Source of the DNA: a virus
Length of the DNA: 45,302 nucleotides
Virus record (IMG/VR): IMGVR_UViG_3300021400_000002
Span: 1-45,302 of that record
Reading direction: 5' to 3' (one strand)
Part shown: positions 499 to 45,302 of the stretch, in pieces
Position numbering within the stretch: position 1 is the stretch's first letter
How the letters are laid out: each line of letters starts with the position of its first letter
Position numbers and translations under genes: made by a program
The notes under the pieces: generated by a model
Seen by the model: only the letters and a program-made list of their open reading frames with translations
Databases searched by the model: none
What the model was told of the DNA's origin: nothing

Positions 499-1227
499 CT
501 AACTCAACAACTCTCTAAACTTCTCAACAGCCTTATCGTTATATTTAAACGAATCGACTTCTTTGCATGAATAGCGTGATTTATCACGATACCACTCACC
601 AAACTCTTCTGTTTTCATGCCATGTTTGTTGGATATTGAACCTATCCTTTGGGCTGATACTCCAAACATTGCGCCGATTTCAGTCGCTGTATACATCTTT
701 TGTTCGGAATGTGGAAGAGGAAAAATTTTTTCACCTGAAAGCACTTCTGCCGCTTTAGCTATCAATATGTTTTTATATTCCGCTGACAGTGTATCGACAT
801 TTGCAAGTTTAAGAAGTTGGTTTGACATTCTGACCTTTGCGTTCATCAGTTTTGCATCAACAGCTTTTGACTTATCAGAGTTGTCATAGTTATTAGGCAC
901 GGTGTAACTGCCTGTCTTGCGAATACTAGGCAGGATTTCACTTGTAACCCAGTGCTTAAATTCTTTTGCTTTCGGGAGCTTACTTGAAAGGATAAGACTG
1001 TAAAGTCCGCTTTCGTTGATAAGCCAACCGCCACGCTGTCCTAAACTCGATAACGTTTCGTTATTGAGTTTGTCGTATTCATCTACATGGTCTGCAAGTG
1101 CCTTGCTTGCATTCTGATACCCCAGTATTTCTGCCACATCCTTACCTACAAAGTAAGGCTCTCCGTTTACATCAAGTGTTCTTACCTTTCCAAAGTCGGG
1201 ATTCTCAAAAATTTTGATATTATCCAC
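499..1227 (-). CDS. Phage antirepressor (Bro-N/KilA-N-type N-terminus plus Ant-like C-terminus)
   Basis: N-terminus IKIFENPDFGKVRTLDVNGEPYFVGKDVAEILGY is the classic Bro-N motif. It lies directly downstream of the cro-like gene and ends in TAG. Confidence 0.85.
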   Translation of the reverse strand: MDNIKIFENPDFGKVRTLDVNGEPYFVGKDVAEILGYQNASKALADHVDEYDKLNNETLSSLGQRGGWLINESGLYSLILSSKLPKAKEFKHWVTSEILPSIRKTGSYTVPNNYDNSDKSKAVDAKLMNAKVRMSNQLLKLANVDTLSAEYKNILIAKAAEVLSGEKIFPLPHSEQKMYTATEIGAMFGVSAQRIGSISNKHGMKTEEFGEWYRDKSRYSCKEVDSFKYNDKAVEKFRELLS

Positions 1228-3436: not shown

Positions 3437-4858
3437 ATGAAAATAGCAGCCGCATATATCCGTGTATCAACCGATGATCAGACGGAGTTGTCTCCGGACA
3501 GTCAGATCAAGCAGATACGCGAATATGCAAAGTCCCATGACTACATCGTTCCCGAAGAGTTTATTTACCGCGATGACGGCATATCTGGACGTAAGACCAA
3601 GAACCGACCTGCATTTGCCCAAATGATAGCAACAGCGAAATCAAAAAAGCCACCTTTTGAGGCTATCTTAGTATGGAAGTTTAGCCGTTTTGCAAGAAAC
3701 AGAGAGGATAGCATAGTCTACAAGTCCATGCTGAAGAAGCAGGGCATTGACGTTATCAGCATATCTGAGCCTGTCGGTGACGATAAGATGTCAGTGCTCA
3801 TTGAAGCCATGATTGAAGCTATGGACGAGTACTATTCGCTTAACCTTTCGGAAGAGGTAACAAGAGGTATGCTTGAAAAGCTTTCACGCGGCAAATGCGT
3901 TAACTCTGCTCCACTCGGCTACTACTTCAAGGATGGCGAACTGGTCATAGACGAGGAAAAGGCTGAGATAGTCCGCTGGATATACGCAGATTTCCTTGAT
4001 GGTGTTCCTATAGTACAGATAGCACGAAATCTAAACGCTGAGGGCATAAAAACGCTATATGGCAAGCAATTTGAGAACCGCAGTATAGAATATATACTTC
4101 GAAATCCGCTGTACTGTGGCAAGCTACGTTTTACCAAGGGTGGAGGTTCTAAGAGCCACTACCATAAATGCGAGGATGTGATGATTGTAGACGGCACACA
4201 TGAACCTATAATCGCGCTTGACGATTGGAATAGAGCTGCCGAAAAGATACAAGCCATAAAAGCAAAGCACCGTAAATATTATCACGAATACGCCAACAAA
4301 CACACTCTGATGCTTACCGGGCTTTTGCGATGCTCAACGTGCGGAGCATCACTCACGCATTCCGCAGACGGATATCAGTGCATCAAGTATATTCACGGAT
4401 TCTGCAATGTATCGCATTATGTCAGCCAAAACAAGATACACAAAGCTGTTATCGCAGCCCTGAGCGATGCATCTATCGGAGATATCCACATCTCTCCCAA
4501 AGTGCAAAAGCCAAAGACCACCGACAACACAGCAAAGCTGATAGCACGTGAAGAAGCCAAGCTTGATAGAGTAAAGGATGCTTATGCCGCTGGCATAGAC
4601 ACTCTTGAGGAATACAAGGAAAACAAGCAAAAGATAATTGCTGAGATAGAAAGACTTAAATCCACACAGGCACAAGAAAAGCCTGCTGCCATCAACATGG
4701 AAGACATACAGGCTAAGAGGCTATCGTTCTTAGAAATGGCAAGTGATCCCGAAGCATCACCTGAGATGCTGAACAGCGCACTCAAAGAATTCATTGATTA
4801 CATCGTATACGACAAGGCAAGTGAGCATATCACTATTTTTTATTCTCGCACATTATAA
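3437..4858 (+). CDS. int: Large serine recombinase (integrase)
   Basis: N-terminus AAYIRVSTDDQ...SPDSQ (resolvase catalytic motif), a recombinase domain, a Cys-rich zinc ribbon CSTCGASL...C and a C-terminal coiled coil; 473 aa. Confidence 0.92.
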   Translation: MKIAAAYIRVSTDDQTELSPDSQIKQIREYAKSHDYIVPEEFIYRDDGISGRKTKNRPAFAQMIATAKSKKPPFEAILVWKFSRFARNREDSIVYKSMLKKQGIDVISISEPVGDDKMSVLIEAMIEAMDEYYSLNLSEEVTRGMLEKLSRGKCVNSAPLGYYFKDGELVIDEEKAEIVRWIYADFLDGVPIVQIARNLNAEGIKTLYGKQFENRSIEYILRNPLYCGKLRFTKGGGSKSHYHKCEDVMIVDGTHEPIIALDDWNRAAEKIQAIKAKHRKYYHEYANKHTLMLTGLLRCSTCGASLTHSADGYQCIKYIHGFCNVSHYVSQNKIHKAVIAALSDASIGDIHISPKVQKPKTTDNTAKLIAREEAKLDRVKDAYAAGIDTLEEYKENKQKIIAEIERLKSTQAQEKPAAINMEDIQAKRLSFLEMASDPEASPEMLNSALKEFIDYIVYDKASEHITIFYSRTL

Positions 4859-4967
4859 CATTTTGCAATAAGTCCCACCAAACTACAAATTGTTATAGTA
4901 CTCTAAAACCGCCTATTTTGGGGAGTTTTCTTTGATGTCATTTTCAAGCAATCAACGATGAGCGCAT

Positions 4968-5150
4968 TCAATCTTTTTCCATAGCTTCATCTATCACCCT
5001 GTTAATAAATCCATTCATGCTTTCGTTATGGCGGTCTGCATAATCTTTTATTCGTTCCTTTTTCCCTTTAGGCATTCTGATCTGATAGATGTCATAGTTG
5101 TTTTTGACATACTTAGCAACAGCCTTTTGTTGTGCTTTACTTGCTGGCAT
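4968..5150 (-). CDS. Ribbon-helix-helix (Arc/CopG-like) DNA-binding protein
   Basis: 60 aa. YQIRMPKGKKERIKDYADRHNESMNGFINRVIDEAM fits a beta-strand plus two-helix RHH. SD AGAGGGTGA. Divergent from the operator array. Confidence 0.65.
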   Translation of the reverse strand: MPASKAQQKAVAKYVKNNYDIYQIRMPKGKKERIKDYADRHNESMNGFINRVIDEAMEKD

Positions 5151-5175
5151 TATATCACCCTCTTTCTATAATAAA

Positions 5176-5204
5176 ATTGTACCATAAATCTATATTGAAT
5201 ACAA
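5176..5204 (-). promoter_or_regulatory. Candidate promoter for the RHH gene
   Basis: Minus strand reads TTGTAT (5199-5204), 17 nt, TACAAT (5176-5181). The -35 is overlapped by operator 1. Confidence 0.5.
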
Positions 5205-5273
5205 TATACAAATTGCATAATATATTGAATGCAATATCATCTATTTTGCCTATTGATATATTGAATTCAATAT
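5192..5273. promoter_or_regulatory. Three 16-bp palindromic operators ATATTGAAnnCAATAT
   Basis: 5192-5207 ATATTGAATACAATAT; 5222-5237 ATATTGAATGCAATAT; 5258-5273 ATATTGAATTCAATAT (perfect palindrome). Confidence 0.7.
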
Positions 5274-5281
5274 GCTATAAT
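5253..5281 (+). promoter_or_regulatory. Promoter for the two small plus-strand ORFs
   Basis: TTGATA (5253-5258), 17 nt, TGcTATAAT (-10 at 5276-5281). The perfect palindrome fills the spacer. Confidence 0.7.
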
Positions 5282-5324
5282 ATAGACAAGATAAGAGATA
5301 ACCCAAGACCAAGGAGGTATTCAT

Positions 5325-5483
5325 ATGAAACTTATAATTACTAGAGTAAGAATAATAAAGGTCATGGATACTTATCAGGTATCTCATGATGGAAATCTTG
5401 TAGGTACATTTTACAACAAGAAAGATGCAAAAGAGTTCGCTGATATGCTGAACAAAATGTACGGATATATCAAGGAGGTATGA
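5325..5483 (+). CDS. Small hypothetical protein (52 aa)
   Basis: SD AAGGAGG 5 nt upstream of ATG 5325. Product MKLIITRVRIIKVMDTYQVSHDGNLVGTFYNKKDAKEFADMLNKMYGYIKEV. Below the ORF-track cutoff. Confidence 0.6.
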   Translation: MKLIITRVRIIKVMDTYQVSHDGNLVGTFYNKKDAKEFADMLNKMYGYIKEV

Positions 5484-5486
5484 ACC

Positions 5487-5660
5487 ATGAACATCACATA
5501 CAAGCGCAGCACAGATGATGCTTTCATCCTTGAAGCATACATAGACAATGAGCCATTCGCATGGATAAGAGAGATTGAGACAGGATTTGCAGTCTATACC
5601 GCGATATCGGTCAAAAAGTTCAAGACACTTGCAGAAGCCCTTGAATACATCGAAAGATAA
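5487..5660 (+). CDS. Small hypothetical protein (57 aa)
   Basis: SD AAGGAGG inside the end of the previous ORF; ATG 5487. Product MNITYKRSTDDAFILEAYIDNEPFAWIREIETGFAVYTAISVKKFKTLAEALEYIER. Confidence 0.6.
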   Translation: MNITYKRSTDDAFILEAYIDNEPFAWIREIETGFAVYTAISVKKFKTLAEALEYIER

Positions 5661-5664
5661 GACA

Positions 5665-5696
5665 AACTCCCGAGGATTTCTCGGGAGTTGCTTTTC
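5665..5696. terminator. Bidirectional intrinsic terminator
   Basis: 10-bp stem AACTCCCGAG/CTCGGGAGTT with loop GATTT, T-rich on both sides. It sits between convergent genes ending at 5660 (+) and 5695 (-). Confidence 0.8.
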
Positions 5697-21934: not shown

Positions 21935-21991
21935 CGTTTTTCCTCCTATAAAAAATCAGCCTCCGCTTTTACACGGAGGCTTGGTTATCGA

Positions 21992-24420: not shown

Positions 24421-24450
24421 AGCCGCCTGCGCTCTCACTCACAGACGGCT
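24421..24450 (-). terminator. Hairpin after the capsid block (attenuator or weak terminator)
   Basis: Minus strand reads AGCCGTCTG-12 nt-CAGGCGGCT (one G-U pair) followed by TATCTTTCT. Confidence 0.4.
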
Positions 24451-26593: not shown

Positions 26594-26731
26594 AGATATT
26601 ACTCCTTTTCTTCGGTGGCAGTTCTTCGCCACTATGGTCTTTGTTGTCAAACTGCGACTCTTTGCAGCTTGTATCAACCATTTCCGCTTTGGAAATAGTT
26701 CATATAAACAGCAAAGATAAAGAGCGAACCA

Positions 26732-27217
26732 TCAAAGTTCGCCCTTTAAAACCGTTTCAATTAATCGCTTGTATTCGTCTTTGTGTTCACTCACTGCATC
26801 ACGGAGAAAGCGGTTAGCTTCCATTGTACCGCCATTCGGCAGATGCGCTCCCTCATGTACATAGATACCATATTCCACATTTGTCCCTACGTAAACGCTA
26901 TGTTCGCCTTCTGCCTTTGCTATCTTGCCTTGATATGATCCGCTTACTACAGGTACTGGATTGCCATGCTTATCGTGTCCGTCATTCTGATAGGTCTGCC
27001 CATGCGTTTTCAGCACTATCGGTATCTCTCCTGCAATGGCATAAGCTATGGAGTTACGCAGTAAGCCTGTATCAACTCTTCTAGGGTCTCTTTCAAGGTT
27101 GAGTATCGCATAGCCTGCCGCTTGCACACCTACAGCTTCAAGGGCTTTGTCGATGTTTTGATTAAGCGCATTGAGGATATCTCCGCTGTGGTCTTCAATG
27201 TGTATATCAATACTCAC
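26732..27217 (-). CDS. HK97 gp10-like family protein
   Basis: 161 aa with motifs VDTGLLRNSI and GTNVEYGIYVHEG. Unusual position between the MuF and scaffold genes. Confidence 0.55.
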   Translation of the reverse strand: MSIDIHIEDHSGDILNALNQNIDKALEAVGVQAAGYAILNLERDPRRVDTGLLRNSIAYAIAGEIPIVLKTHGQTYQNDGHDKHGNPVPVVSGSYQGKIAKAEGEHSVYVGTNVEYGIYVHEGAHLPNGGTMEANRFLRDAVSEHKDEYKRLIETVLKGEL

Positions 27218-31584: not shown

Positions 31585-31615
31585 ATAAAAATAGCACCCC
31601 GCCGAAGCAGAGTGC
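31585..31615 (-). terminator. Intrinsic terminator upstream of terS
   Basis: Minus strand reads GCACUCUGC-UUCG-GCGGGGUGC (9 bp, UUCG loop) followed by UAUUUUUAU. Confidence 0.7.
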
Positions 31616-33264: not shown

Positions 33265-33815
33265 GTGCCATCATCCTCCGCCTCCTTGATTATCCTCTCA
33301 ATAACATCATTCTGATGCTTACTGAGATAGCTTATTATTGCTTTTTTCTTATCTATCGGGAATGTAAACGTCTTGTTAAAGAAGTCCCTGTCATCATCGT
33401 TCTTGTCATATCCGCCGAAATCCTGTATATCATCAACAGAGAACATATCGGGGATATCGATGTCAAAATCGTCCATGTCTATATCTTCGATTTTGTCTAA
33501 TTCCTCACTGAATAAGTCCCAATCCGTATCACCTTTGGCTATCTCGTTATCAATTAGCCTGTATGCCCTTATTTCATCCTCTGTGAGGTCATCGACTAAC
33601 TCACAAGGCACAGATACCATGCCTAATCTCTGCGCCGCTAAGAGCCTGCCATGTCCACATACAACCACATTGTCAGCATCGATGACAATAGGCTGTCGAA
33701 GTCCGTGTGTCAGCGTAATTGACTTAATTATCTGCTGTATCTGCTTTTCTGTATGTATTTTCGGATTGTTTTCATACGCTATCAGATCAGCTATCGGCTT
33801 TTCGACTATGTTCAT
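33261..33815 (-). CDS. ParB N-terminal (ParB/Srx-fold) domain protein
   Basis: IADLIAYENNPKIHTEKQIQQIIKSI...GLRQPIVID..NVVVCGHGRLLAAQRLG; acidic C-terminal half; 184 aa. Confidence 0.8.
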   Translation of the reverse strand: MNIVEKPIADLIAYENNPKIHTEKQIQQIIKSITLTHGLRQPIVIDADNVVVCGHGRLLAAQRLGMVSVPCELVDDLTEDEIRAYRLIDNEIAKGDTDWDLFSEELDKIEDIDMDDFDIDIPDMFSVDDIQDFGGYDKNDDDRDFFNKTFTFPIDKKKAIISYLSKHQNDVIERIIKEAEDDGT

Positions 33816-33833
33816 GGGCTCACCTCTTTTGGC

Positions 33834-33866
33834 ATAAAAATCACCGCCCCGATTTTTCGGAGCGGT
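33834..33866 (-). terminator. Strong intrinsic terminator immediately upstream of the ParB gene RBS
   Basis: Minus strand reads ACCGCUCCGA-AAAA-UCGGGGCGGU (10 bp including one G-U) followed by GAUUUUUAU. Confidence 0.75.
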
Positions 33867-33914
33867 TAAAGGAGAATTAAATGAAATGGTTAGAAAAAGA
33901 TGGAAGGATAGATA

Positions 33915-33998
33915 GGGAGAACCGAGGATTTGAACCTCTCGCTGCTAGTGCGGATAACAGCTTTGCACAGACCTGATGCTCATGGTCTTACGTTCTCC
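33915..33998 (-). ncRNA. tRNA-like element (canonical acceptor stem and T-arm, non-canonical core)
   Basis: 7-bp acceptor GGAGAAC/GTTCTCC. T-arm GAGG-TTCAAAT-CCTC. Discriminator C, no encoded CCA. 5-bp AGACC/GGTCT stem with a 10-nt loop lacking GG. No 5-bp/7-nt anticodon arm found by eye. Confidence 0.45.
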
Positions 33999-34268
33999 AT
34001 AGCCTCCGGGTACTACAACATAATGAGGATTATGTTCCGGGGGCGTTTACTATGCAAGAAAAAGAAATTTCCTAGCCCCGAAGGGCTGTACAGCTTTTGA
34101 CGAACTGCATTAAACGTCGGATTTTTTAACTATGATATATAGATTTTGGGGTGAGAATATCCGCAAACTCATTGCCGTCTTTGGTATCTGAATCCCTCAA
34201 CGGCAAAATTTCCTTGAAGGAGGTGAATGTGTACTATCTGCACTCTCTTTATCTGTTTTCCCATTATA

Positions 34269-34297
34269 AATATACCATAGGATTTTCGGACATTCAA
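34269..34297 (-). promoter_or_regulatory. Candidate late promoter
   Basis: Minus strand reads TTGAAT (34292-34297), a 17-nt spacer, TATATT (34269-34274), with TATAAT 3 nt further on. Confidence 0.6.
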
Positions 34298-34324
34298 GTA
34301 CTTCCTTTAGACATTCTTAGACAT
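34286..34324 (-). promoter_or_regulatory. Direct repeats ATGTCTAA x2 (10-bp phasing) plus ATGTCCGA at the late promoter
   Basis: Minus-strand copies at 34317-34324 and 34307-34314, with a third copy at 34286-34293 overlapping the -35 and spacer. Confidence 0.5.
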
Positions 34325-34338
34325 CCAATGTAGAAAAA

Positions 34339-34734
34339 TTAAAGATTAGTTTGTTCAATTTGTTTAATATAACGAGCAACATATCTCTGCAAAGCTACTT
34401 CGCTCTCTTCGCCCATTGCGTGTGCCGTGTTTCTCCAGCTTAATCCTTCTTTGCAGTTGAGTTCCAGTGCCTTGCGTACTCGGTATACAGGTATAGCCGC
34501 TATGTAGTCATCTATCTCCGCTATCTTGCGTTCAAGTTCCTTCCTCTGGGCAAGCAGATTGATCGTGCCTATACCGTGAATGTAGCCTTCCACCGATACT
34601 GTCACCTGTTCATGTGCTGGTTCACCGCTGTCACCTAACACAGCATCATGTATCTCCTTGCTTTCAAGTTGTCTATCAACACAGTCCAGCATCTCGGTCA
34701 ATGCTCTATGCTGTCTTAACTCTTCGATTTTCAA
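34339..34734 (-). CDS. Late-gene transcription regulator candidate (sigma region-4-like HTH at the C-terminus)
   Basis: C-terminus IPVYRVRKALELNCKEGLSWRNTAHAMGEESEVALQRYVARYIKQ. TTG 34734 preceded by GGGAGGTGA (the track ORF starts at a GTG at 34752 with no SD). Confidence 0.6.
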   Translation of the reverse strand: MKIEELRQHRALTEMLDCVDRQLESKEIHDAVLGDSGEPAHEQVTVSVEGYIHGIGTINLLAQRKELERKIAEIDDYIAAIPVYRVRKALELNCKEGLSWRNTAHAMGEESEVALQRYVARYIKQIEQTNL

Positions 34735-34871
34735 TTTATCACCTCCCTTCACATCGCGAGAATTGCGCTCTATGACGTTTGTTTTTTAGCTAGGTGTTTA
34801 TACTAGCTTTGCCCTTACGCTTGAATATGGGCTATCTCCATTCGTTCTGTGATGTATTATTATTTGCTTTC

Positions 34872-36492: not shown

Positions 36493-36830
36493 GAATAATA
36501 CCTCCCGTCTGTACATATTCCGCTTATCTCGCAATATGCTCTATAATCGCTCTCTAACATAAGAACAGTGTCATATCGTTTGTATTTTTTACATAAGTCA
36601 CGACACATCTTCACGGGTTCTTTGCGACATATAGTGTCGTCATATCCGTGATAAGACATATCATCAAGTGTATAAAGTTCCGCATCGTCAAGGACTTCGG
36701 TGTATCCTCCGAAACAACGTTCCTCGTCATCTTTTGTGCGCTTGTATCCCCATAGCGTGCAAGGCTGCCCGAAACGCCACTTGTATTCAGTGTGCTTAAT
36801 ACTAATAGCTACATATTTTCTGTCACTCAT
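36489..36830 (-). CDS. Hypothetical protein (113 aa)
   Basis: ORF in track; ATGA-coupled. Confidence 0.65.
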   Translation of the reverse strand: MSDRKYVAISIKHTEYKWRFGQPCTLWGYKRTKDDEERCFGGYTEVLDDAELYTLDDMSYHGYDDTICRKEPVKMCRDLCKKYKRYDTVLMLESDYRAYCEISGICTDGRYYS

Positions 36831-37525
36831 TGTTTTCCCTCCATCTCATCAACATATTGTCCCCACTGCTCTGCCATAGCTTCTGCGATACCCTCAAAAG
36901 TTTTAGACCTCTGCCGTGCACGGTCTGTTGTGAACATTCCTCTGTGCTTTTCTCCGTGTTTTTTGGAATAACTTCCAGAGGGACACCATGTCGCGACAGG
37001 CTCAACAACATTTGTTGCTTGCAGCGGTGGCAGATTTTTCAGCCATAAACACGTTCTTTTAGTGTAGGGATGCCCAAACATATAAGGCTGAATTATCTGT
37101 GTGTATTTCGGCAAGCAGAATACAGATGAAGGTATAGGATTTTCGACCGCTATTTTATCACAGTTCGCCCAGAGAAAGCGCAAAAAGAAGTGTGATGCTT
37201 CAATCCCTTGCCTTAATCGTTCCTCATTTAGCGTATGAGTGCCGCCTCTATAGAGATGTCTTGCACCTGCATTGCTGATATATGTGCAAGGCGGATGCGC
37301 TATCAGTATATCCCACTTAGGCACAATGTGATACTTTCCGTCCATCGTCTGAAACGATATCCCCCCCGCATTTGAGCCGATGAGTTCTAGTGCATCACCC
37401 TGAATGTGCCACTCGGGATGTCCTCCGCTAGGCTCTTGAATATCACAGCTATACGCTTCATGTCCCCGCTTACGAAAGGCTATACATACTCTTTGACTTT
37501 CCTCACAAGCTACTAAAACTCTCAT
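36827..37525 (-). CDS. Putative DNA methyltransferase-like protein (short C5-MTase-like family with a PPC motif)
   Basis: MRVLVACEESQRVCIAFRKRGHEAYSCDI...ILIAHPPCTYISNAGARH; the family assignment is from memory only. Confidence 0.5.
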   Translation of the reverse strand: MRVLVACEESQRVCIAFRKRGHEAYSCDIQEPSGGHPEWHIQGDALELIGSNAGGISFQTMDGKYHIVPKWDILIAHPPCTYISNAGARHLYRGGTHTLNEERLRQGIEASHFFLRFLWANCDKIAVENPIPSSVFCLPKYTQIIQPYMFGHPYTKRTCLWLKNLPPLQATNVVEPVATWCPSGSYSKKHGEKHRGMFTTDRARQRSKTFEGIAEAMAEQWGQYVDEMEGKQ

Positions 37526-41094: not shown

Positions 41095-41736
41095 TTATAT
41101 TACCCCTTTTCTTATTTGTGTTCTTCTTGTTGCAATGATATCTCGTGAACAATTGTATTTTTTCATTAATTCTGAGTTTGTAAGTCCGTTTTCAATGTCT
41201 TTTTTTAATTCATCTATTGGTATTTCATATTTTGTTCCAATATGAACTGGGATCTCATATTCATCAAGATATCTTTTTACTCTATAGTTACTTATGTGAT
41301 TTTCTTTTGCAATTTTTGATATTCCTTTATGTTCTTCCACATACATCTGAATCATGTCATCTTTTGATAATTTTTTCAGTTTCCTTAATCCAGTTCGTAT
41401 TGCGTGTTCATTATTTTCTTTTTGTGTACACCATTCGAGATTTGTAATGTGGTTATTTAACCTATTTCCATCAATATGATTGATGTAAGGCTTGTTTTCT
41501 GGATTTGGTAAAAACGCAAATGCAACTAAACGATGAATTCTATGTGTCTTTCTTTGGTTATCTTTTATAAGGTCGATTCTATAGTATCCGTTTGTAGTTA
41601 GTGTTGGTGTAATAAAATGTTCTCTACCAATCTTTTGATTATTGCCAAATGTTTGATAGCTTTTCACTCTGCCGATGTTACTTATTTTATAAAGTCCTTC
41701 ATATCCTTTAATATCTCGCCATTCTTCCATCTTCAT
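41095..41736 (-). CDS. Free-standing HNH homing endonuclease (NUMOD4 + HNH_3-type)
   Basis: EEWRDIKGYEGLYKISNIGRVKS (NUMOD4) and INHIDGNRLNNHITNLEWCTQKENNEHA (HNH). Visibly AT-richer than its neighbours; abuts ssb and the TAG-broken gene with 0-1 nt spacing. Confidence 0.85.
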   Translation of the reverse strand: MKMEEWRDIKGYEGLYKISNIGRVKSYQTFGNNQKIGREHFITPTLTTNGYYRIDLIKDNQRKTHRIHRLVAFAFLPNPENKPYINHIDGNRLNNHITNLEWCTQKENNEHAIRTGLRKLKKLSKDDMIQMYVEEHKGISKIAKENHISNYRVKRYLDEYEIPVHIGTKYEIPIDELKKDIENGLTNSELMKKYNCSRDIIATRRTQIRKGVI

Positions 41737-42026
41737 CACTCCTCCTCTAAATAATTACGCCCGAATATCTCCCTGAATTGGTCTATTGACCATCCTTGTT
41801 CTTTCATGGCTTTTTCCTGTCCGTATCTGTGCAACATTGCTGCTGTCTGCTTGTTGTGATGAACGCCGTATGGTTGTTCATTGTGGCAGTAATGGCACAG
41901 ATAAACCACAAGACCGTATTTTTCGGATAGTTTTCTGTTTGCGCCGCCGAAAATGTGCTAATGGTGACGTTCAAGCCCTCCAGCGTGTCTGTTCCGCTGG
42001 CAAATAAAGCATCGTCTATCGTCCAT
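41736..42026 (-). pseudogene. Small HNH-motif Cys/His protein interrupted by an in-frame TAG (41958-41960)
   Basis: MDDRRCFICQRNRHAGGLERHH-TAG-HIFGGANRKLSEKYGLVVYLCHYCHNEQPYGVHHN...FGRNYLEEE. SD GAGGG 8 nt upstream of ATG 42026. The stop sits inside the HH catalytic motif. Confidence 0.6.
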
Positions 42027-43268: not shown

Positions 43269-43730
43269 TCACTTAATGGTCATGCTTATGCTATCAACGA
43301 GTTCTGCGCCCTCAATGCTGATACCGTCCTTTATAGCCGCAGTGATAGCTACTTTGTCCGGTGTCGGTGCGCTATATCTCAGATAATCATCAGGTATCTT
43401 GTCAAGATTAGTGATCTCGACCTTCTGCGACTTCTTGAAAGAGCAAACAGCCCTTGAAGTCTCGAACCTCTTCCCGGCAAGTTCCTTTTTCAGATAATCC
43501 TTTATACTTTCTGCCCTGCGTTCTTTTTTCTGTCTGCGTTTTGCAAGGGCTTCCTCCTCAGCCTTGATAGCCACAGCTTCAGCTTTTAACTCCTTTACCC
43601 ACAAGGCTAGATTTTCAAGCTTTTCATCCCTCATCATTAAGAGTTCGTCAAGCTTTTCGGGGTCTGCCTCGCCTGTTTCGGGGTCTACGCAATTGAGGAT
43701 AGCCTCATTGATCTCGTACAGTTTCATCAT
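43269..43730 (-). CDS. Siphovirus Gp157-like protein
   Basis: MMKLYEINEAILNCVDPETGE...LENLALWVKELKAEAVAIKAEEEALAKRRQ; located upstream of the SSAP, as is typical. Confidence 0.65.
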   Translation of the reverse strand: MMKLYEINEAILNCVDPETGEADPEKLDELLMMRDEKLENLALWVKELKAEAVAIKAEEEALAKRRQKKERRAESIKDYLKKELAGKRFETSRAVCSFKKSQKVEITNLDKIPDDYLRYSAPTPDKVAITAAIKDGISIEGAELVDSISMTIK

Positions 43731-44776: not shown

Positions 44777-45177
44777 AGATGATTCGCTACAATCTCACGA
44801 TTTGTAGTTACTGCTTCACCGTGTATGCTTTTGCAGTTACAAGTAACATACTACTCACAAGTTCTTGTACACTCCACAGTCGTTAATTCCCGAAATAGCC
44901 TTCGGTACATATCCATATCGCCTTGTATGTGGCATAATATGGATTTCATCTAAATAGTAGACTCTCCTTTCTTAATATTTTAATTTGCTACTTGGTTTTT
45001 GTAGTCTTATACCATTACTCAAACACAACCATCAGGTTTCTACACCATAGTTAGCAGGACTTTTTCAAACTGCTCTGGTATTTCCTGTGTTTTCAGTGGT
45101 TTTAAGTTACCAACTAATACTCTGGGTTTTGAGTATCTTTGAGTATATTTACTCACATTTGATAATATTATTAGTTA

Positions 45178-45302
45178 CTTAACAAAACCTCCTTTGTACT
45201 CTTCCACATGGCTGGAATAATACCGCGATAACGCCTCAGATACCCTCTCTGTGGCTTTCTCTGCCCACTCGGCTAACTTATCGGCTGATATCCTTTCGGC
45301 GG
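45178..45302 (-). CDS. 3' end of the junction-spanning early ORF (same gene as 1-228)
   Basis: ...SRYYSSHVEEYKGGFV-TAA; stop at 45178-45180. Bases 45196-45302 duplicate 1-107. Confidence 0.55.
45196..45302. repeat. Second copy of the 107-bp terminal repeat
   Basis: Identical by eye to bases 1-107. Confidence 0.9.

What the first reader, a model, noticed from the sequence alone, without database searches (positions are those of the whole stretch)
33816..34338. 523-nt gene-free late leader with a tRNA-like element, several clean helices and a terminal terminator
The gap between the late-regulator gene and the ParB/rSAM/terminase operon is the largest gene-free gap in the window. Reading the minus strand:

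1. There is a near-consensus promoter, TTGAAT-17-TATATT. It is preceded by ATGTCTAA twice, exactly 10 bp apart, with a third ATGTCCGA overlapping the -35 and spacer. These look like activator sites.
2. A leader of about 400 nt follows with no SD-preceded ORF. It contains well-formed helices: UUGCCGU/ACGGCAA (7 bp), AGCCC-UUCG-GGGCU, and AACAUAAU-CCUC-AUUAUGUU (8 bp).
3. An 84-nt element (33915-33998) has a perfect 7-bp acceptor stem (GGAGAAC/GUUCUCC), a T-arm with the canonical UUCAAAU loop and discriminator C. Its D-like stem is 5 bp with a 10-nt loop lacking GG, and I cannot fold a 5-bp/7-nt anticodon arm.
4. A 10-bp GC-rich terminator plus U-tract ends the unit, right before the ParB ribosome-binding site.

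A 7-nt acceptor complement at tRNA spacing beside a perfect T-loop is unlikely by chance. The element could be a degenerate or decoy tRNA, part of a larger structured phage RNA (large ornate prophage RNAs are often tRNA-associated), or a PR'-tR'-style leader that an antiterminator must read through.
Basis: seen in the sequence. Interest (0 to 1): 0.75.

Follow-up and report, generated by a model that had tools for sequence, protein, structure and literature searches.

The report
Structured phage late-leader RNA with tRNA mimic
The gap holds a conserved, highly folded non-coding RNA of rumen phages, not found in Rfam, whose tRNA-shaped part is not a tRNA but a conserved mimic of the acceptor/T-arm half, sitting where a relative carries a real tRNA-Gln gene.

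Summary
Window 33816-34338 (minus strand) has no conserved ORF. It carries a TG-extended promoter with phased upstream repeats, several helices, an 83-nt tRNA-shaped element and a 10-bp terminator just before the ParB start.

Comparison with about 11 diverged versions from rumen metagenomes shows a conserved, modular RNA unit. It always follows the gene for a small regulator with a sigma-region-4-like fold.

- **5' core (34175-34071):** a hairpin whose loop pairs with the adjacent AUCCG (pseudoknot), plus two more hairpins, supported by covariation.
- **tRNA-like element (33998-33916):** supported by covariation; 96.6% of cells pair and 6 of 12 pairs change on both sides.
- **Not a tRNA:** ARAGORN and Rfam reject it in the window and in six relatives. 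The family T-loop is UGCAANU; the window's UUCAAAU is a one-base variant. The inner arms vary from two to none.
- **What is kept:** the 7+5-layer acceptor/T minihelix.
- **Synteny:** one relative (L087) has a real tRNA-Gln after the same 5' core.

My best reading, which is inferred, is a tRNA-mimic processing handle (RNase P/Z) inside a late-leader RNA whose terminator must be read through. An att relic and a dead tRNA are unlikely. No Rfam family matches. Function is untested.

The parts
34339..34752 (-). Gene of the small late regulator (131-137 aa) that always precedes the RNA unit
   Evidence: ORF. No Pfam hit; phrog_36 'transcriptional regulator', E 4e-4. AF2 model has pLDDT 75.7. Its C-terminal ~60 aa match sigma region 4 (-35-binding) domains: Foldseek prob 0.97-0.98, but E only 0.26-0.9. 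Homologues at 31-97% identity sit directly upstream of the homologous leader in L074, L076, L078, L083, L084, L087, L088, L095 and L098.
34286..34324 (-). Three phased ATGTCYRA repeats (34324-34317, 34314-34307, 34293-34286), candidate regulator sites
   Evidence: Read. Relatives have a pair of direct repeats 10-12 nt apart in the same place. The repeat sequence changes with the regulator type: ATGTCG in L076/L078, AATGTTC in L088/L095, AATGTCAC in L083, TACGGTC / TTACCGT in L082/L084.
34263..34297 (-). Promoter: -35 TTGAAT (34297-34292), 17 nt, TG-extended -10 TATATT (34274-34269), then a second -10-like hexamer TATAAT (34268-34263). Transcription probably starts at GGG 34262-34260.
   Evidence: Consensus scan. 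The tandem hexamers followed by ATGG are kept in every relative, e.g. TATAAT-TAAAAT-GG in L078 and TATAAT-TATAAT-GG in L088 and L083. The start site is inferred, not mapped.
34216..34224 (-). CACCUCCUU block (identical to the anti-Shine-Dalgarno end of 16S rRNA; complementary to the ParB SD GAGGUG)
   Evidence: Read. Also present in L074, L076 and L078; variants in L088/L095 (UACCUC) and L083 (UUCUCCU). Role untested.
34172..34206 (-). Hairpin D1: UUGCCGU / ACGGCAA, with a conserved GAGG...CCAAAG loop
   Evidence: The stem covaries: GCCGU/ACGGC (window, L083), CGCCGC/GCGGCG (L098), GCGGC/GCCGC (L076), GGCGGC/GCUGCC (L078); sequences.
34071..34175 (-). 5' core motif. Hairpin P1 (34171-34152) has the conserved loop UUUGCGGAUAUU. 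Loop bases CGGAU pair with AUCCG at 34122-34118 (pseudoknot). Hairpin P3 (34109-34089) has the conserved loop GUUCGUCAAAA. Hairpin P4 is AGCCC-UUCG-GGGCU (34087-34074).
   Evidence: Covariance model R2 hits the window at 80.5 bits. It also hits L074, L076, L078, L083, L084, L087, L088, L095/96, L097-101 and L079/81, with no credible hit elsewhere in 355 kb (two weak chance-level matches, L086 E 0.18 and L008 E 0.6). Pair count: 87.4% of cells paired, 9 of 17 pairs changed on both sides, score 0.329 against 0.138 in shuffles (0/500). The pseudoknot is 100% paired, with one C-G to U-A swap (L076) and one G-U (L088). P1 stems covary.
34002..34044 (-). Middle hairpin D5: GCC-CCGG / CCGG-A-GGC enclosing AACAUAAU-CCUC-AUUAUGUU, with a GUAGUAC internal loop
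   Evidence: L098 has the same design with different stems (CCGCUCAU/AUGAGCGG and CGAUAA/UUAUCG) and the same CCUC loop. A GUACUGUA-type internal loop recurs in L083, L088 and L095. The homology break with L074 lies at 34010.
33916..33998 (-). tRNA-like four-way junction. Acceptor-like stem 33998-33992 / 33922-33916; arm 1 at 33991-33965; arm 2 at 33961-33941 (loop UCCGCAC); T-like arm 33938-33924 (loop UUCAAAU). C33915 sits in the discriminator position.
   Evidence: Model R1 finds homologues in L076, L078, L083, L088, L095, L097-101 and L032 (5' cut), but not the genuine tRNAs of L001, L036 and L087. Acceptor and T stems: 96.6% of cells paired, 6 of 12 pairs changed on both sides, score 0.548 against 0.206 (0/500), slid controls 0.125 or lower. 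Both inner arms differ from L098 by compensatory changes. Not accepted by ARAGORN or any Rfam model at E <= 10.
33867..33915 (-). G-free C/U-rich tract with conserved UUCUCCU (33876-33870) just before the terminator
   Evidence: Read. CUCCU/CCUCC is kept before the terminator in L076, L078, L098, L088/95, L033, L084 and L079. The weak sub-threshold Rfam hits here are to sRNAs with a CU-rich seed plus terminator; they are not significant.
33835..33866 (-). Intrinsic terminator: ACCGCUCCGA-AAAA-UCGGGGCGGU (33866-33843) followed by GAUUUUUA
   Evidence: A terminator in the same position, with covarying stems, is found in 10 of 11 relatives examined.
33813..33826 (-). ParB Shine-Dalgarno GAGGUG (33826-33821) and start codon (33815-33813), the first gene of the ParB / radical-SAM / terminase array
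   Evidence: L077 has the same kind of promoter only 30 nt before this SD, with no leader.
31594..31615 (-). Second strong same-strand terminator, between the 205-aa ORF and terS
   Evidence: Others at 26748, 24450 and 21981 are also intergenic. They bear on the read-through question.

Best explanation
The gap is one transcription unit for a conserved, modular, highly folded phage RNA. It runs about 420 nt, from the promoter at 34297-34269 to the terminator at 33866-33843. In a group of rumen siphophages (one copy is binned with a Ruminococcus MAG), this unit always lies directly downstream of the gene for a small sigma-region-4-like regulator.

The RNA has three parts: a pseudoknotted 5' core, a middle hairpin, and a tRNA-shaped 3' domain followed by a CU-rich tail.

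The tRNA-shaped domain is not a decoding tRNA. Selection keeps only the coaxial acceptor/T-arm half of a tRNA: 7 + 5 layers, a 7-nt T-loop U[G/U]CAANU, and G1-C and G2-C pairs. One relative has a genuine tRNA-Gln directly after the same 5' core, where the others carry the middle hairpin and then the mimic.

I therefore think it acts as a tRNA-mimic handle for the host tRNA-end enzymes: RNase P on the 5' side, RNase Z on the 3' side. These would cut the primary transcript and release the 5' folded RNA from the 3' tail. In transcripts that read through the terminator, the cut would separate it from the ParB/terminase mRNA. Expression of the late genes from this promoter requires read-through of the terminator.

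Shown here: the anatomy, the conservation, the covariation, the synteny with a real tRNA, and non-membership in tRNA and Rfam families.

Inferred: transcription from this promoter, cleavage by RNase P/Z, and read-through.
For: - Promoter and terminator bracket the unit, and both are kept in relatives.
- The acceptor and T stems covary strongly. The inner arms covary between the window and L098, whose regulator is only about 40% identical.
- By my reading of the sequences, seven of eight members keep 12 stacked layers (7 acceptor + 5 T). All full-length members start GG.
- The inner hairpin is deleted in L088, a lineage seen in 13 contigs, while the minihelix stays intact.
- L087 has regulator homologue, promoter and 5' core followed by tRNA-Gln(UUG).
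- L001 and L036 carry tRNA genes upstream of the ParB operon.
- G-U pairs occur only in the sense orientation, and no ORF is conserved. The constraint is therefore on the minus-strand RNA.
- From the literature: RNase P and RNase Z recognise the acceptor/T minihelix by length (PMC4919913), and tRNA-like 't-elements' set mRNA ends in plant mitochondria (PMC1920247).
Against: - There are no expression or cleavage data at all.
- A T-loop with G at position 55 and no D-loop partner is a poorer RNase P substrate than a real tRNA.
- L078 has only 11 layers.
- L084, L079/81 and L074 carry the 5' core without the tRNA-like module. The core's function therefore does not depend on it.
- The arm-2 loop of the window and L098 is conserved and complementary over 8 nt to the core loop. 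This suggests a structural docking role rather than, or as well as, a processing role.
- In L098 an opposite-strand gene cassette lies between the terminator and ParB. There the unit looks like a free-standing RNA gene rather than a 5' UTR.
Confidence: 0.42

Rival explanations
1. Antitermination leader. The unit is the phage's PR'-tR' equivalent: an active promoter makes a short terminated RNA, and late genes are expressed only when RNA polymerase becomes terminator-resistant. Resistance would come either from the regulator encoded just upstream (Q-like in function) or from the folded leader RNA acting in cis (like HK022 put or B. subtilis EAR). The tRNA-like domain would be part of that RNA's fold. 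This is compatible with the best explanation and could be true together with it.
For: - Gene order is regulator, promoter, about 420-nt leader, terminator, late operon, with no room for a promoter between the terminator and the ParB SD.
- The promoter is near-consensus with an extended -10. It may therefore not need an activator.
- Four further strong same-strand terminators lie in intergenic positions of the late array, at 31615, 26748, 24450 and 21981.
- In ten of the eleven core-bearing leaders examined, a terminator follows within about 90-320 nt of the end of the core (100-328 nt from the start of the P1 loop); the exception is L087, where tRNA-Gln follows. This includes the unrelated context of L079/81.
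- A -10-like hexamer directly follows the -10 in all relatives.
Against: - The regulator has no Q-family Pfam hit, and its confident part is a sigma-region-4 fold, as expected for a promoter-binding activator.
- The second hexamer lies upstream of the probable start, not in the initially transcribed region where sigma-dependent pause elements lie.
- Rfam (which I recall includes EAR; the model list was not checked) gives no hit at E <= 10.
- Terminator-like sites overall are not more frequent than in shuffles (18 against 14.6 +/- 4.4).
- L077 drives ParB from the same type of promoter with no leader or terminator.
Confidence: 0.3
2. Free-standing trans-acting phage RNA. The unit is an RNA gene in its own right, comparable in setting to GOLLD and ROOL (large ornate RNAs found in prophages next to tRNAs). 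The tRNA-like domain would dock on the 5' core through a loop-loop contact, within one molecule or between molecules. The terminated RNA would be the functional product during the lytic cycle.
For: - The RNA has at least seven conserved helices and a pseudoknot.
- It travels with the regulator gene, not with ParB. It is followed by a different terminase module in L074, by another gene in L087, and by an opposite-strand cassette in L098.
- The core loop UGCGGAUA has an 8-nt complement in the conserved arm-2 loop of the window and L098. L083 and L088/95 have 7-nt complements elsewhere.
- GOLLD and ROOL are described as often near tRNAs and in prophages (PMC5737381) and as forming RNA-only assemblies (PMC12286853).
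Against: - There are no Rfam GOLLD or ROOL hits in the window or in 20 related loci.
- At about 420 nt it is smaller, and much of it (middle part, inner arms) is variable or dispensable.
- The loop complementarity is only moderately unlikely by chance (about 0.04 for the 8-mer, 0.19 per 7-mer) and is absent in L076 and L084.
- In the window the terminator abuts the ParB SD, as in a 5' leader.
Confidence: 0.18
3. Decaying tRNA gene or decoy tRNA. The element would be a phage tRNA gene on its way to loss, or a non-decoding tRNA copy that soaks up a host tRNA-directed defence nuclease.
For: - Relatives carry real tRNA genes in or near the slot.
- The window copy has a canonical UUCAAAU T-loop and a 7-bp acceptor stem.
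Against: - Decay should break stems. Instead 96.6% of cells pair, with compensatory changes, across lineages whose flanking proteins are 40-60% identical.
- The family T-loop has G55, which real tRNAs lack by general knowledge.
- No member has an anticodon-type loop with U33.
- The inner arms range from two to none. A decoy for an anticodon nuclease is therefore excluded. A decoy for an acceptor/T-arm binder is not excluded.
Confidence: 0.07
4. Attachment-site relic. The 3' 25 nt would be a copy of a host tRNA 3' end used as an integration core.
For: Many integrases target tRNA genes, and L083 has a tyrosine integrase about 1.2 kb upstream of the element.
Against: - A 5' strand complementary over 7 of 7 bases is present and covaries.
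- The family T-loop (UGCAANU) is not that of a tRNA.
- The 23-mer has no exact match in IMG/VR, and there is no second copy in the window within 3 mismatches.
- The window's integrase is a large serine recombinase at 3437-4858, with its own adjacent non-coding stretch.
- Host tRNA genes could not be searched.
Confidence: 0.02

Closest known systems
tRNA-like processing signals (plant mitochondrial t-elements; mascRNA-type elements)
   Same: A non-decoding acceptor/T-arm mimic is embedded in a longer transcript, at a place where a real tRNA can also sit. Such elements are cut by RNase P and RNase Z to make RNA ends (PMC1920247 for t-elements; mascRNA from my own knowledge).
   Different: This one is bacterial and phage-borne. 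Cleavage is not shown. The T-loop has G at position 55 in most members. It forms part of a larger conserved RNA with a pseudoknotted 5' core.
Lambda Q / PR' / 6S RNA / tR' late control
   Same: The regulator gene lies directly upstream. A strong promoter is followed by a short non-coding leader that ends in an intrinsic terminator just before the late (terminase) operon. Further terminators lie downstream.
   Different: The regulator is sigma-region-4-like with no Q-family signature. The leader is about twice as long and conserved as a folded RNA. No sigma-dependent pause element is evident in the transcribed part.
GOLLD and ROOL large ornate RNAs
   Same: Multi-helix, pseudoknotted non-coding RNAs of prophages, often next to tRNA genes (PMC5737381). 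ROOL was first found in rumen data.
   Different: There is no covariance-model match. This RNA is smaller, and the tRNA-like part is inside the unit rather than a neighbouring gene. There is no evidence of oligomers.
Ltr super-family late activators (RinA, ArpU, LtrC) of Gram-positive phages
   Same: A small protein is encoded just upstream of the packaging genes and is thought to act at the late promoter (PMC3753634, PMC3152322). Here phased repeats change together with the regulator type.
   Different: Pfam's Ltr-type models give no hit. The described systems have no long structured, terminated leader between the promoter and terS.
Cis-acting antitermination RNAs (HK022 put, B. subtilis EAR)
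   Same: A folded RNA early in an operon, upstream of intrinsic terminators that must be passed.
   Different: No sequence or model similarity. The activity is untested here.

Membership tests
tRNA (decoding) | Recognised as a cloverleaf by standard detectors | tested here: not met
   ARAGORN at default settings finds 0 genes in the window and in all leader-bearing relatives. Only at 80% threshold does it give a different 93-nt fold with a poor D arm. Rfam tRNA RF00005 gives no hit at E <= 10 in the window or E <= 5 in six relatives, while it scores 54-66 bits on the real tRNAs of L001, L036 and L087.
tRNA (decoding) | 7-nt anticodon loop with U33 and purine 37; D loop with G18 G19 | tested here: not met
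   The arm-2 loop UCCGCAC has C at position 33. The arm-1 loop AUGAGCAUCA has no GG. Arm 1 is absent in L076, L078, L083 and L095, and both arms are absent in L088.
tRNA (decoding) | 7-bp acceptor stem stacked on a 5-bp T stem with a 7-nt T-loop (U54, U55, C56, R57, A58) | tested here: inconclusive
   The geometry is met: 7+5 layers in 7 of 8 members, by my reading of the sequences. The loop is UUCAAAU in the window. Position 55 is G in all seven other members.
tmRNA | tRNA-like ends enclosing a tag reading frame and pseudoknots | tested here: not met
   ARAGORN in tmRNA mode finds nothing. The two acceptor strands are only 44-93 nt apart.
GOLLD / ROOL | Match to the family covariance model | tested here: not met
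   No hit at gathering score in the window or 20 related loci. None at E <= 10 in 33750-34400.
GOLLD / ROOL | Prophage setting, next to tRNA genes | tested here: met
   Phage genes flank the unit. tRNA-Gln follows the same core in L087. This is context only, not membership.
Y RNA-like (YrlA) | Match to the Rfam models; tRNA-like domain internal to a Ro-binding stem | tested here: not met
   No Rfam hit. Here the acceptor-like stem closes the element. The presence of an Rsr/Ro gene was not examined.
Lambda-type Q antitermination unit | Regulator gene, then promoter, then short non-coding RNA ending at a terminator, then the late operon | tested here: met
   (sequence anatomy only).
Lambda-type Q antitermination unit | Regulator belongs to a Q protein family | tested here: not met
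   No Pfam family at E <= 0.01. No PDB sequence relative. The best structural matches are sigma region 4 domains.
Lambda-type Q antitermination unit | Sigma-dependent pause element in the initially transcribed region, and terminator read-through that depends on the regulator | not testable with these tools
   A second -10-like hexamer abuts the -10 (34268-34263), but it probably lies upstream of the start. Transcription assays are needed.
Ltr late activators (RinA / ArpU / LtrC) | Match to the family models | tested here: not met
   No hit to Pfam's Ltr-type models, and no informative NCBIfam hit: the best was an RNA polymerase sigma factor equivalog (PRK09047) at E 0.011, 15 bits against a cut-off of 173. 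Only phrog_36 'transcriptional regulator' at E 4e-4.
Ltr late activators (RinA / ArpU / LtrC) | Encoded just upstream of the packaging genes and acting at a promoter with specific sites | tested here: inconclusive
   The position is met. Phased direct repeats change with the regulator type. Binding is not tested.
tRNA-like processing element (t-element type) | Acceptor/T-arm minihelix without decoding features, conserved in a longer transcript | tested here: met
tRNA-like processing element (t-element type) | Cleavage by RNase P and/or RNase Z at its borders | not testable with these tools
   Needs end mapping or enzyme assays.
Intrinsic terminator | GC-rich hairpin followed by a U run, on the transcribed strand, conserved | tested here: met
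attP core copied from a host tRNA | Exact identity to a host tRNA 3' end, next to the integrase, and repeated at the prophage ends | tested here: inconclusive
   There is no second copy in the window and no exact 23-mer in IMG/VR. The integrase is a serine recombinase 29 kb away. The host genome was not available.

The most novel reading that the evidence does not exclude
The unit is a new class of phage ribonucleic machine: a roughly 420-nt RNA whose tRNA-mimic domain docks on a pseudoknotted core through an 8-bp loop-loop contact. It would act without a dedicated protein. It could work in cis as an RNA that makes RNA polymerase read through the string of late-operon terminators, or as a GOLLD/ROOL-like particle made at high level late in infection. 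Genuine tRNA-Gln and the mimic would be interchangeable modules.
Probability: 0.22. Interest if true: 0.85.

Novelty: new variant of a known kind. Interest (0 to 1): 0.62.

Why it matters
If the reading is right, these phages keep half a tRNA purely as a handle for the host's tRNA-end enzymes, inside the control region of their packaging and structural genes. Processing signals of this kind are described for plant mitochondria and animal nuclei, but to my knowledge they are not an established feature of phage late control.

The work also yields a well-defined new RNA motif pair with ready covariance models: the pseudoknotted 5' core and the minihelix. The family shows modular swapping (mimic, real tRNA, or nothing), which makes function directly testable by comparing natural variants.

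It adds a case to the unexplained link between large structured phage RNAs and tRNA genes. It also flags a possible antitermination circuit in rumen Firmicute phages, a group with almost no experimental genetics.

Tried and rejected
- **tRNA and tmRNA detection.** ARAGORN in default, intron, tmRNA, mitochondrial and lowered-threshold modes gave no credible tRNA. The 93-nt 'tRNA-Thr' at 80% threshold uses a 5' strand (GGAGGCU) that is not conserved in L098.
- **Rfam.** At gathering and at E <= 10, the only significant hit in the window is RAGATH-18, elsewhere.
- **BLAST against GenBank phages.** The leader and the core gave no match.
- **Exact 23-mer of the T arm plus acceptor in IMG/VR.** None found.
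- **Regulator homologues in GTDB genomes.** The protein scan found none. The core DNA pattern found one Ruminococcus MAG contig.
- **Protein-coding reading of the gap.** Open frames of 35 aa or more on both strands were compared among 10 leaders. Similarities jump between frames and strands, so there is no conserved ORF.
- **Anti-SD sequestration of the ParB SD.** The MFE fold pairs the SD with a weak, non-conserved U-rich stretch. I did not pursue it.
- **Second helix GACG/CGUC around P3.** Variation is not clearly compensatory, so I left it out.
- **P1 outer pairs in the automatic alignment.** They were misaligned (62% paired). I re-read them by outward extension.
- **TnpB next to RAGATH-18.** No long ORF lies in 44881-45302.
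Full report
**What is in the window.** On the minus strand, the gap between the stop of a 137-aa ORF (34339-34752) and the ParB start (33815) is 523 nt. The downstream genes are a ParB_N protein, a radical-SAM protein, a 205-aa ORF, a small terminase (HTH_psq; PHROG terminase small subunit) and a large terminase.

The consensus scan finds TTGAAT-17-TATATT with a TG extension at 34297-34269. It also finds one terminator: a 10-bp stem (7 G-C pairs) at 33866-33843, followed by a U run.

The leader folds better than shuffled versions (z = -2.5). The 84-nt element folds alone into a four-way junction (z = -4.0, 0 of 200 shuffles as good).

ARAGORN finds no tRNA or tmRNA in the window. Rfam finds only RAGATH-18 near the other end of the window. 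Nothing meaningful appears in 33750-34400 at E <= 10.

One side claim fails. 4859-5694 is a longer stretch without an ORF of 80 aa or more.

**Where it comes from.** The ParB protein occurs with exactly this sequence on 11 metagenome contigs, and their leaders are identical to the window. Several record names point to rumen samples. The only genome-collection hit of the core motif is a contig binned as 'uncultured Ruminococcus sp.'. GenBank phages hold nothing similar.

**Relatives show a conserved, modular RNA unit.** I collected diverged copies through ParB and regulator homologues. A 131-138-aa regulator homologue is followed by a 430-600-nt stretch without a conserved ORF in L033, L074, L076, L078, L082, L083, L084, L088, L095 and L098; L087 carries the same regulator-promoter-core unit over a shorter stretch that ends in a tRNA-Gln gene.

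Open frames in these stretches match each other only across shifting frames and both strands. That is the signature of nucleotide-level conservation, not protein conservation.

All copies share these features:
- a pair of direct repeats 10-12 nt apart, whose sequence changes with the regulator type;
- a -35 element and a TG-extended -10;
- a second -10-like hexamer directly after the -10, followed by ATGG.

All type-1 copies examined except L087 also end in a GC-rich terminator with covarying stems.

L077 has the same kind of promoter only 30 nt before the ParB SD, with no leader. The leader therefore behaves as an optional cassette.

L074 shares 93.6% identity over leader positions 1-329. It then diverges just upstream of the tRNA-like element (8 nt before the minihelix) and runs into a different terminase module.

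In L098 the unit ends at its terminator. An opposite-strand HTH cassette follows before ParB.

The unit is therefore linked to the regulator gene rather than to ParB.

**The 5' core.** A covariance model (R2) built on the stretch homologous to 34175-34071 finds the motif at 45-93 bits in the window and in L074, L076, L078, L083, L084, L087, L088, L095/96, L097-101 and L079/81. It has no credible hit elsewhere in 355 kb.

The motif has three hairpins:
- **P1** has a conserved 12-nt loop, UUUGCGGAUAUU. Loop bases CGGAU pair with AUCCG a few bases downstream.
- **P3** is short, with the conserved loop GUUCGUCAAAA.
- **P4** is a GC-rich hairpin.

On the model-guided alignment, 87.4% of cells pair and 9 of 17 pairs change on both sides. 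The covariation score is 0.329 against 0.138 in shuffles (0/500). The pseudoknot is fully paired, with one C-G to U-A swap and one G-U. P1 and the upstream hairpin D1 also covary.

**The tRNA-like element.** Homologues exist in L076, L078, L083, L088, L095, L097-101 and L032 (5' cut).

- **Stems.** The acceptor-like stems differ but stay paired: GGAGAAC/GUUCUCC, GGGGAUU/AAUCCCC, GGUGUUU/AGGCACC, GGGUAAU/GUUACCC, GGAUAGU/GCUAUCC. So do the T stems.
- **Pair counts.** 96.6% of cells pair, and 6 of 12 pairs change on both sides. The score is 0.548 against 0.206 (0/500), and slid controls give 0.125 or lower. The alignment was fitted to the model, and there are only eight sequences, so these numbers are supportive rather than final.
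- **Layers.** Seven of eight members have 7 + 5 stacked layers.
- **T-loop.** It is always 7 nt and reads UGCAA(A/C/U)U. Only the window has UUCAAAU.
- **Inner arms.** The window and L098 have two; both differ by compensatory changes while the arm-2 loop UAUCCGCAC is kept. L076, L078, L083 and L095 have one. L088 has none.
- **Detectors.** No member is accepted by ARAGORN or the Rfam tRNA model, which score the real tRNAs of relatives at 54-66 bits.
- **Strand.** G-U pairs occur in the sense orientation only. This places the constraint on the minus-strand RNA.

**Synteny with real tRNAs.** In L087 a regulator homologue (31% identity) is followed by the same promoter type and the 5' core. A tRNA-Gln(UUG) recognised by both ARAGORN and Rfam comes immediately after. 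L001 and L036 carry tRNA-Gln, plus tRNA-Leu in L036, upstream of their ParB operons. The slot therefore accepts a tRNA, a tRNA mimic, or neither (L084, L074, L079/81).

**The regulator.** It has no Pfam or PDB sequence relative and only a weak PHROG 'transcriptional regulator' hit. An AlphaFold model (pLDDT 75.7) has a C-terminal three-helix unit. Its best PDB matches are sigma region 4 (-35-binding) domains: probability 0.97-0.98, but E only 0.26-0.9. Together with the repeats that change with regulator type, this suggests a promoter-binding protein. It is not evidence for or against antitermination.

**How it most likely works.**

*Shown:* a promoter-like site and a terminator bracket a conserved folded RNA with a tRNA-half mimic.

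*Inferred:* the mimic keeps exactly the features that RNase P, RNase Z and the CCA-adding enzyme measure on tRNAs, namely the 12-layer acceptor/T helix and the T-loop (PMC4919913). It is interchangeable with a real tRNA. I therefore read it as a processing handle, like the t-elements that set mRNA ends in plant mitochondria (PMC1920247). Cutting there would detach the 5' folded RNA from the CU-rich tail, or from the late mRNA.

The terminator lies 13 nt before the ParB SD, with no room for a promoter. Four more strong same-strand terminators lie between late genes. Late expression from this promoter therefore needs read-through. Whether the regulator, the RNA itself, or simple leakiness provides it is open.

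These two ideas are compatible. I give the composite 0.42 and the antitermination reading 0.30 as the main function.

**Rejected or unlikely.**
- **Decaying tRNA.** This is contradicted by the compensatory changes.
- **Anticodon-nuclease decoy.** This is contradicted by the dispensable inner arms.
- **Attachment-site relic.** This is made unlikely by the covarying 5' strand, the non-tRNA family consensus, the absence of a second copy, and a serine recombinase 29 kb away. Host tRNAs could not be searched.
- **GOLLD, ROOL, YrlA, tmRNA, EAR and all other Rfam families.** None matched.

**Unexplained.** The core loop UGCGGAUA (34164-34157) is complementary over 8 nt to the conserved arm-2 loop UAUCCGCA (33956-33949) in the window and L098. 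L083 and L088/95 have 7-nt complements at other places. This may be a long-range or intermolecular contact, or an alternative to the local pseudoknot. The statistics are modest.

**Verdict.** The finding is real and more interesting than a stray pseudo-tRNA. It is a conserved, modular phage RNA with no Rfam match and a tRNA-half mimic. Its kind has precedents: a structured late leader, a tRNA-like processing element, and ornate phage RNAs near tRNAs. I therefore rate it a new variant of a known kind, with interest 0.62. All functional statements await end mapping and enzyme or transcription assays.

Noticed in passing
window 44808-44880 (-): RAGATH-18 RNA (RF03064, 72.4 bits; gathering score 44.9). 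The literature links RAGATH-18-derived RNAs to IS607 TnpB nucleases as guide RNAs (PMC11061315). No long ORF lies in 44881-45302 on either strand, so it is either an orphan or its partner lies beyond the window end.
   Followed up: partly
window 31594-31615 (-); also 26718-26748, 24421-24450, 21958-21981 (-): Strong intrinsic-terminator-like hairpins on the late-gene strand, each in an intergenic position of the co-directional late array. The first lies between the 205-aa ORF and terS.
   Followed up: partly
window 3437-5694: A large serine recombinase (Resolvase, Recombinase and Zn_ribbon_recom domains) at 3437-4858 (+), followed by 836 nt without an ORF of 80 aa or more. This is a likely attP region.
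   Followed up: no
L084 1136-1205; L016 2331-2400: int-alpA RNA (RF02996, 47-51 bits, above gathering score) sits in the same regulator-to-ParB slot of two relatives. In L084 it lies downstream of the core motif and its terminator. The slot seems to collect structured RNAs.
   Followed up: no
L087 864-937 (-); L001 1350-1423 and 1738-1812; L036 244-315 and 730-811: tRNA-Gln(UUG) recurs in three related phages in or near this slot (twice in L001). L036 adds tRNA-Leu(UAA). Why Gln(UUG) recurs is unknown.
   Followed up: partly
L078 2189-2500: A ParB-like start (MNIVEKPIADLIAYENNP) right after the leader is followed by about 300 nt of unrelated sequence before the called ParB gene at 2501. This is a duplicated 5' end or an inserted element.
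   Followed up: no
L077 2440-2500: A relative with ParB 79% identical has a consensus promoter (TTGACA-17-TATGAT, TG-extended) 30 nt before ParB and no leader. Its 5' UTR resembles the first 30 nt of the window's leader fused to the ParB SD. AAAGAG is present at both ends of the window's cassette.
   Followed up: partly
window 34164-34157 and 33956-33949 (-): There is 8-nt complementarity between the conserved core loop and the conserved arm-2 loop of the tRNA-like element, also in L098. L083 and L088/95 have 7-nt complements elsewhere.
   Followed up: partly
window 41095-41739 (-), 499-1227 (-), 43269-43730 (-), 36827-37525 (-): A NUMOD4/HNH homing endonuclease, a Bro-N protein, Sipho_Gp157 and a DNA methyltransferase (PHROG 757) in the early region.
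   Followed up: no
L079 / L081 (core at L079 809-892): The 5' core motif also occurs outside the regulator context. It lies after an ORF ending in an acidic tail that looks like a small terminase subunit (judged by eye, not searched), and is again followed by CCUCCU and a terminator. L079 is binned as an uncultured Ruminococcus MAG.
   Followed up: partly
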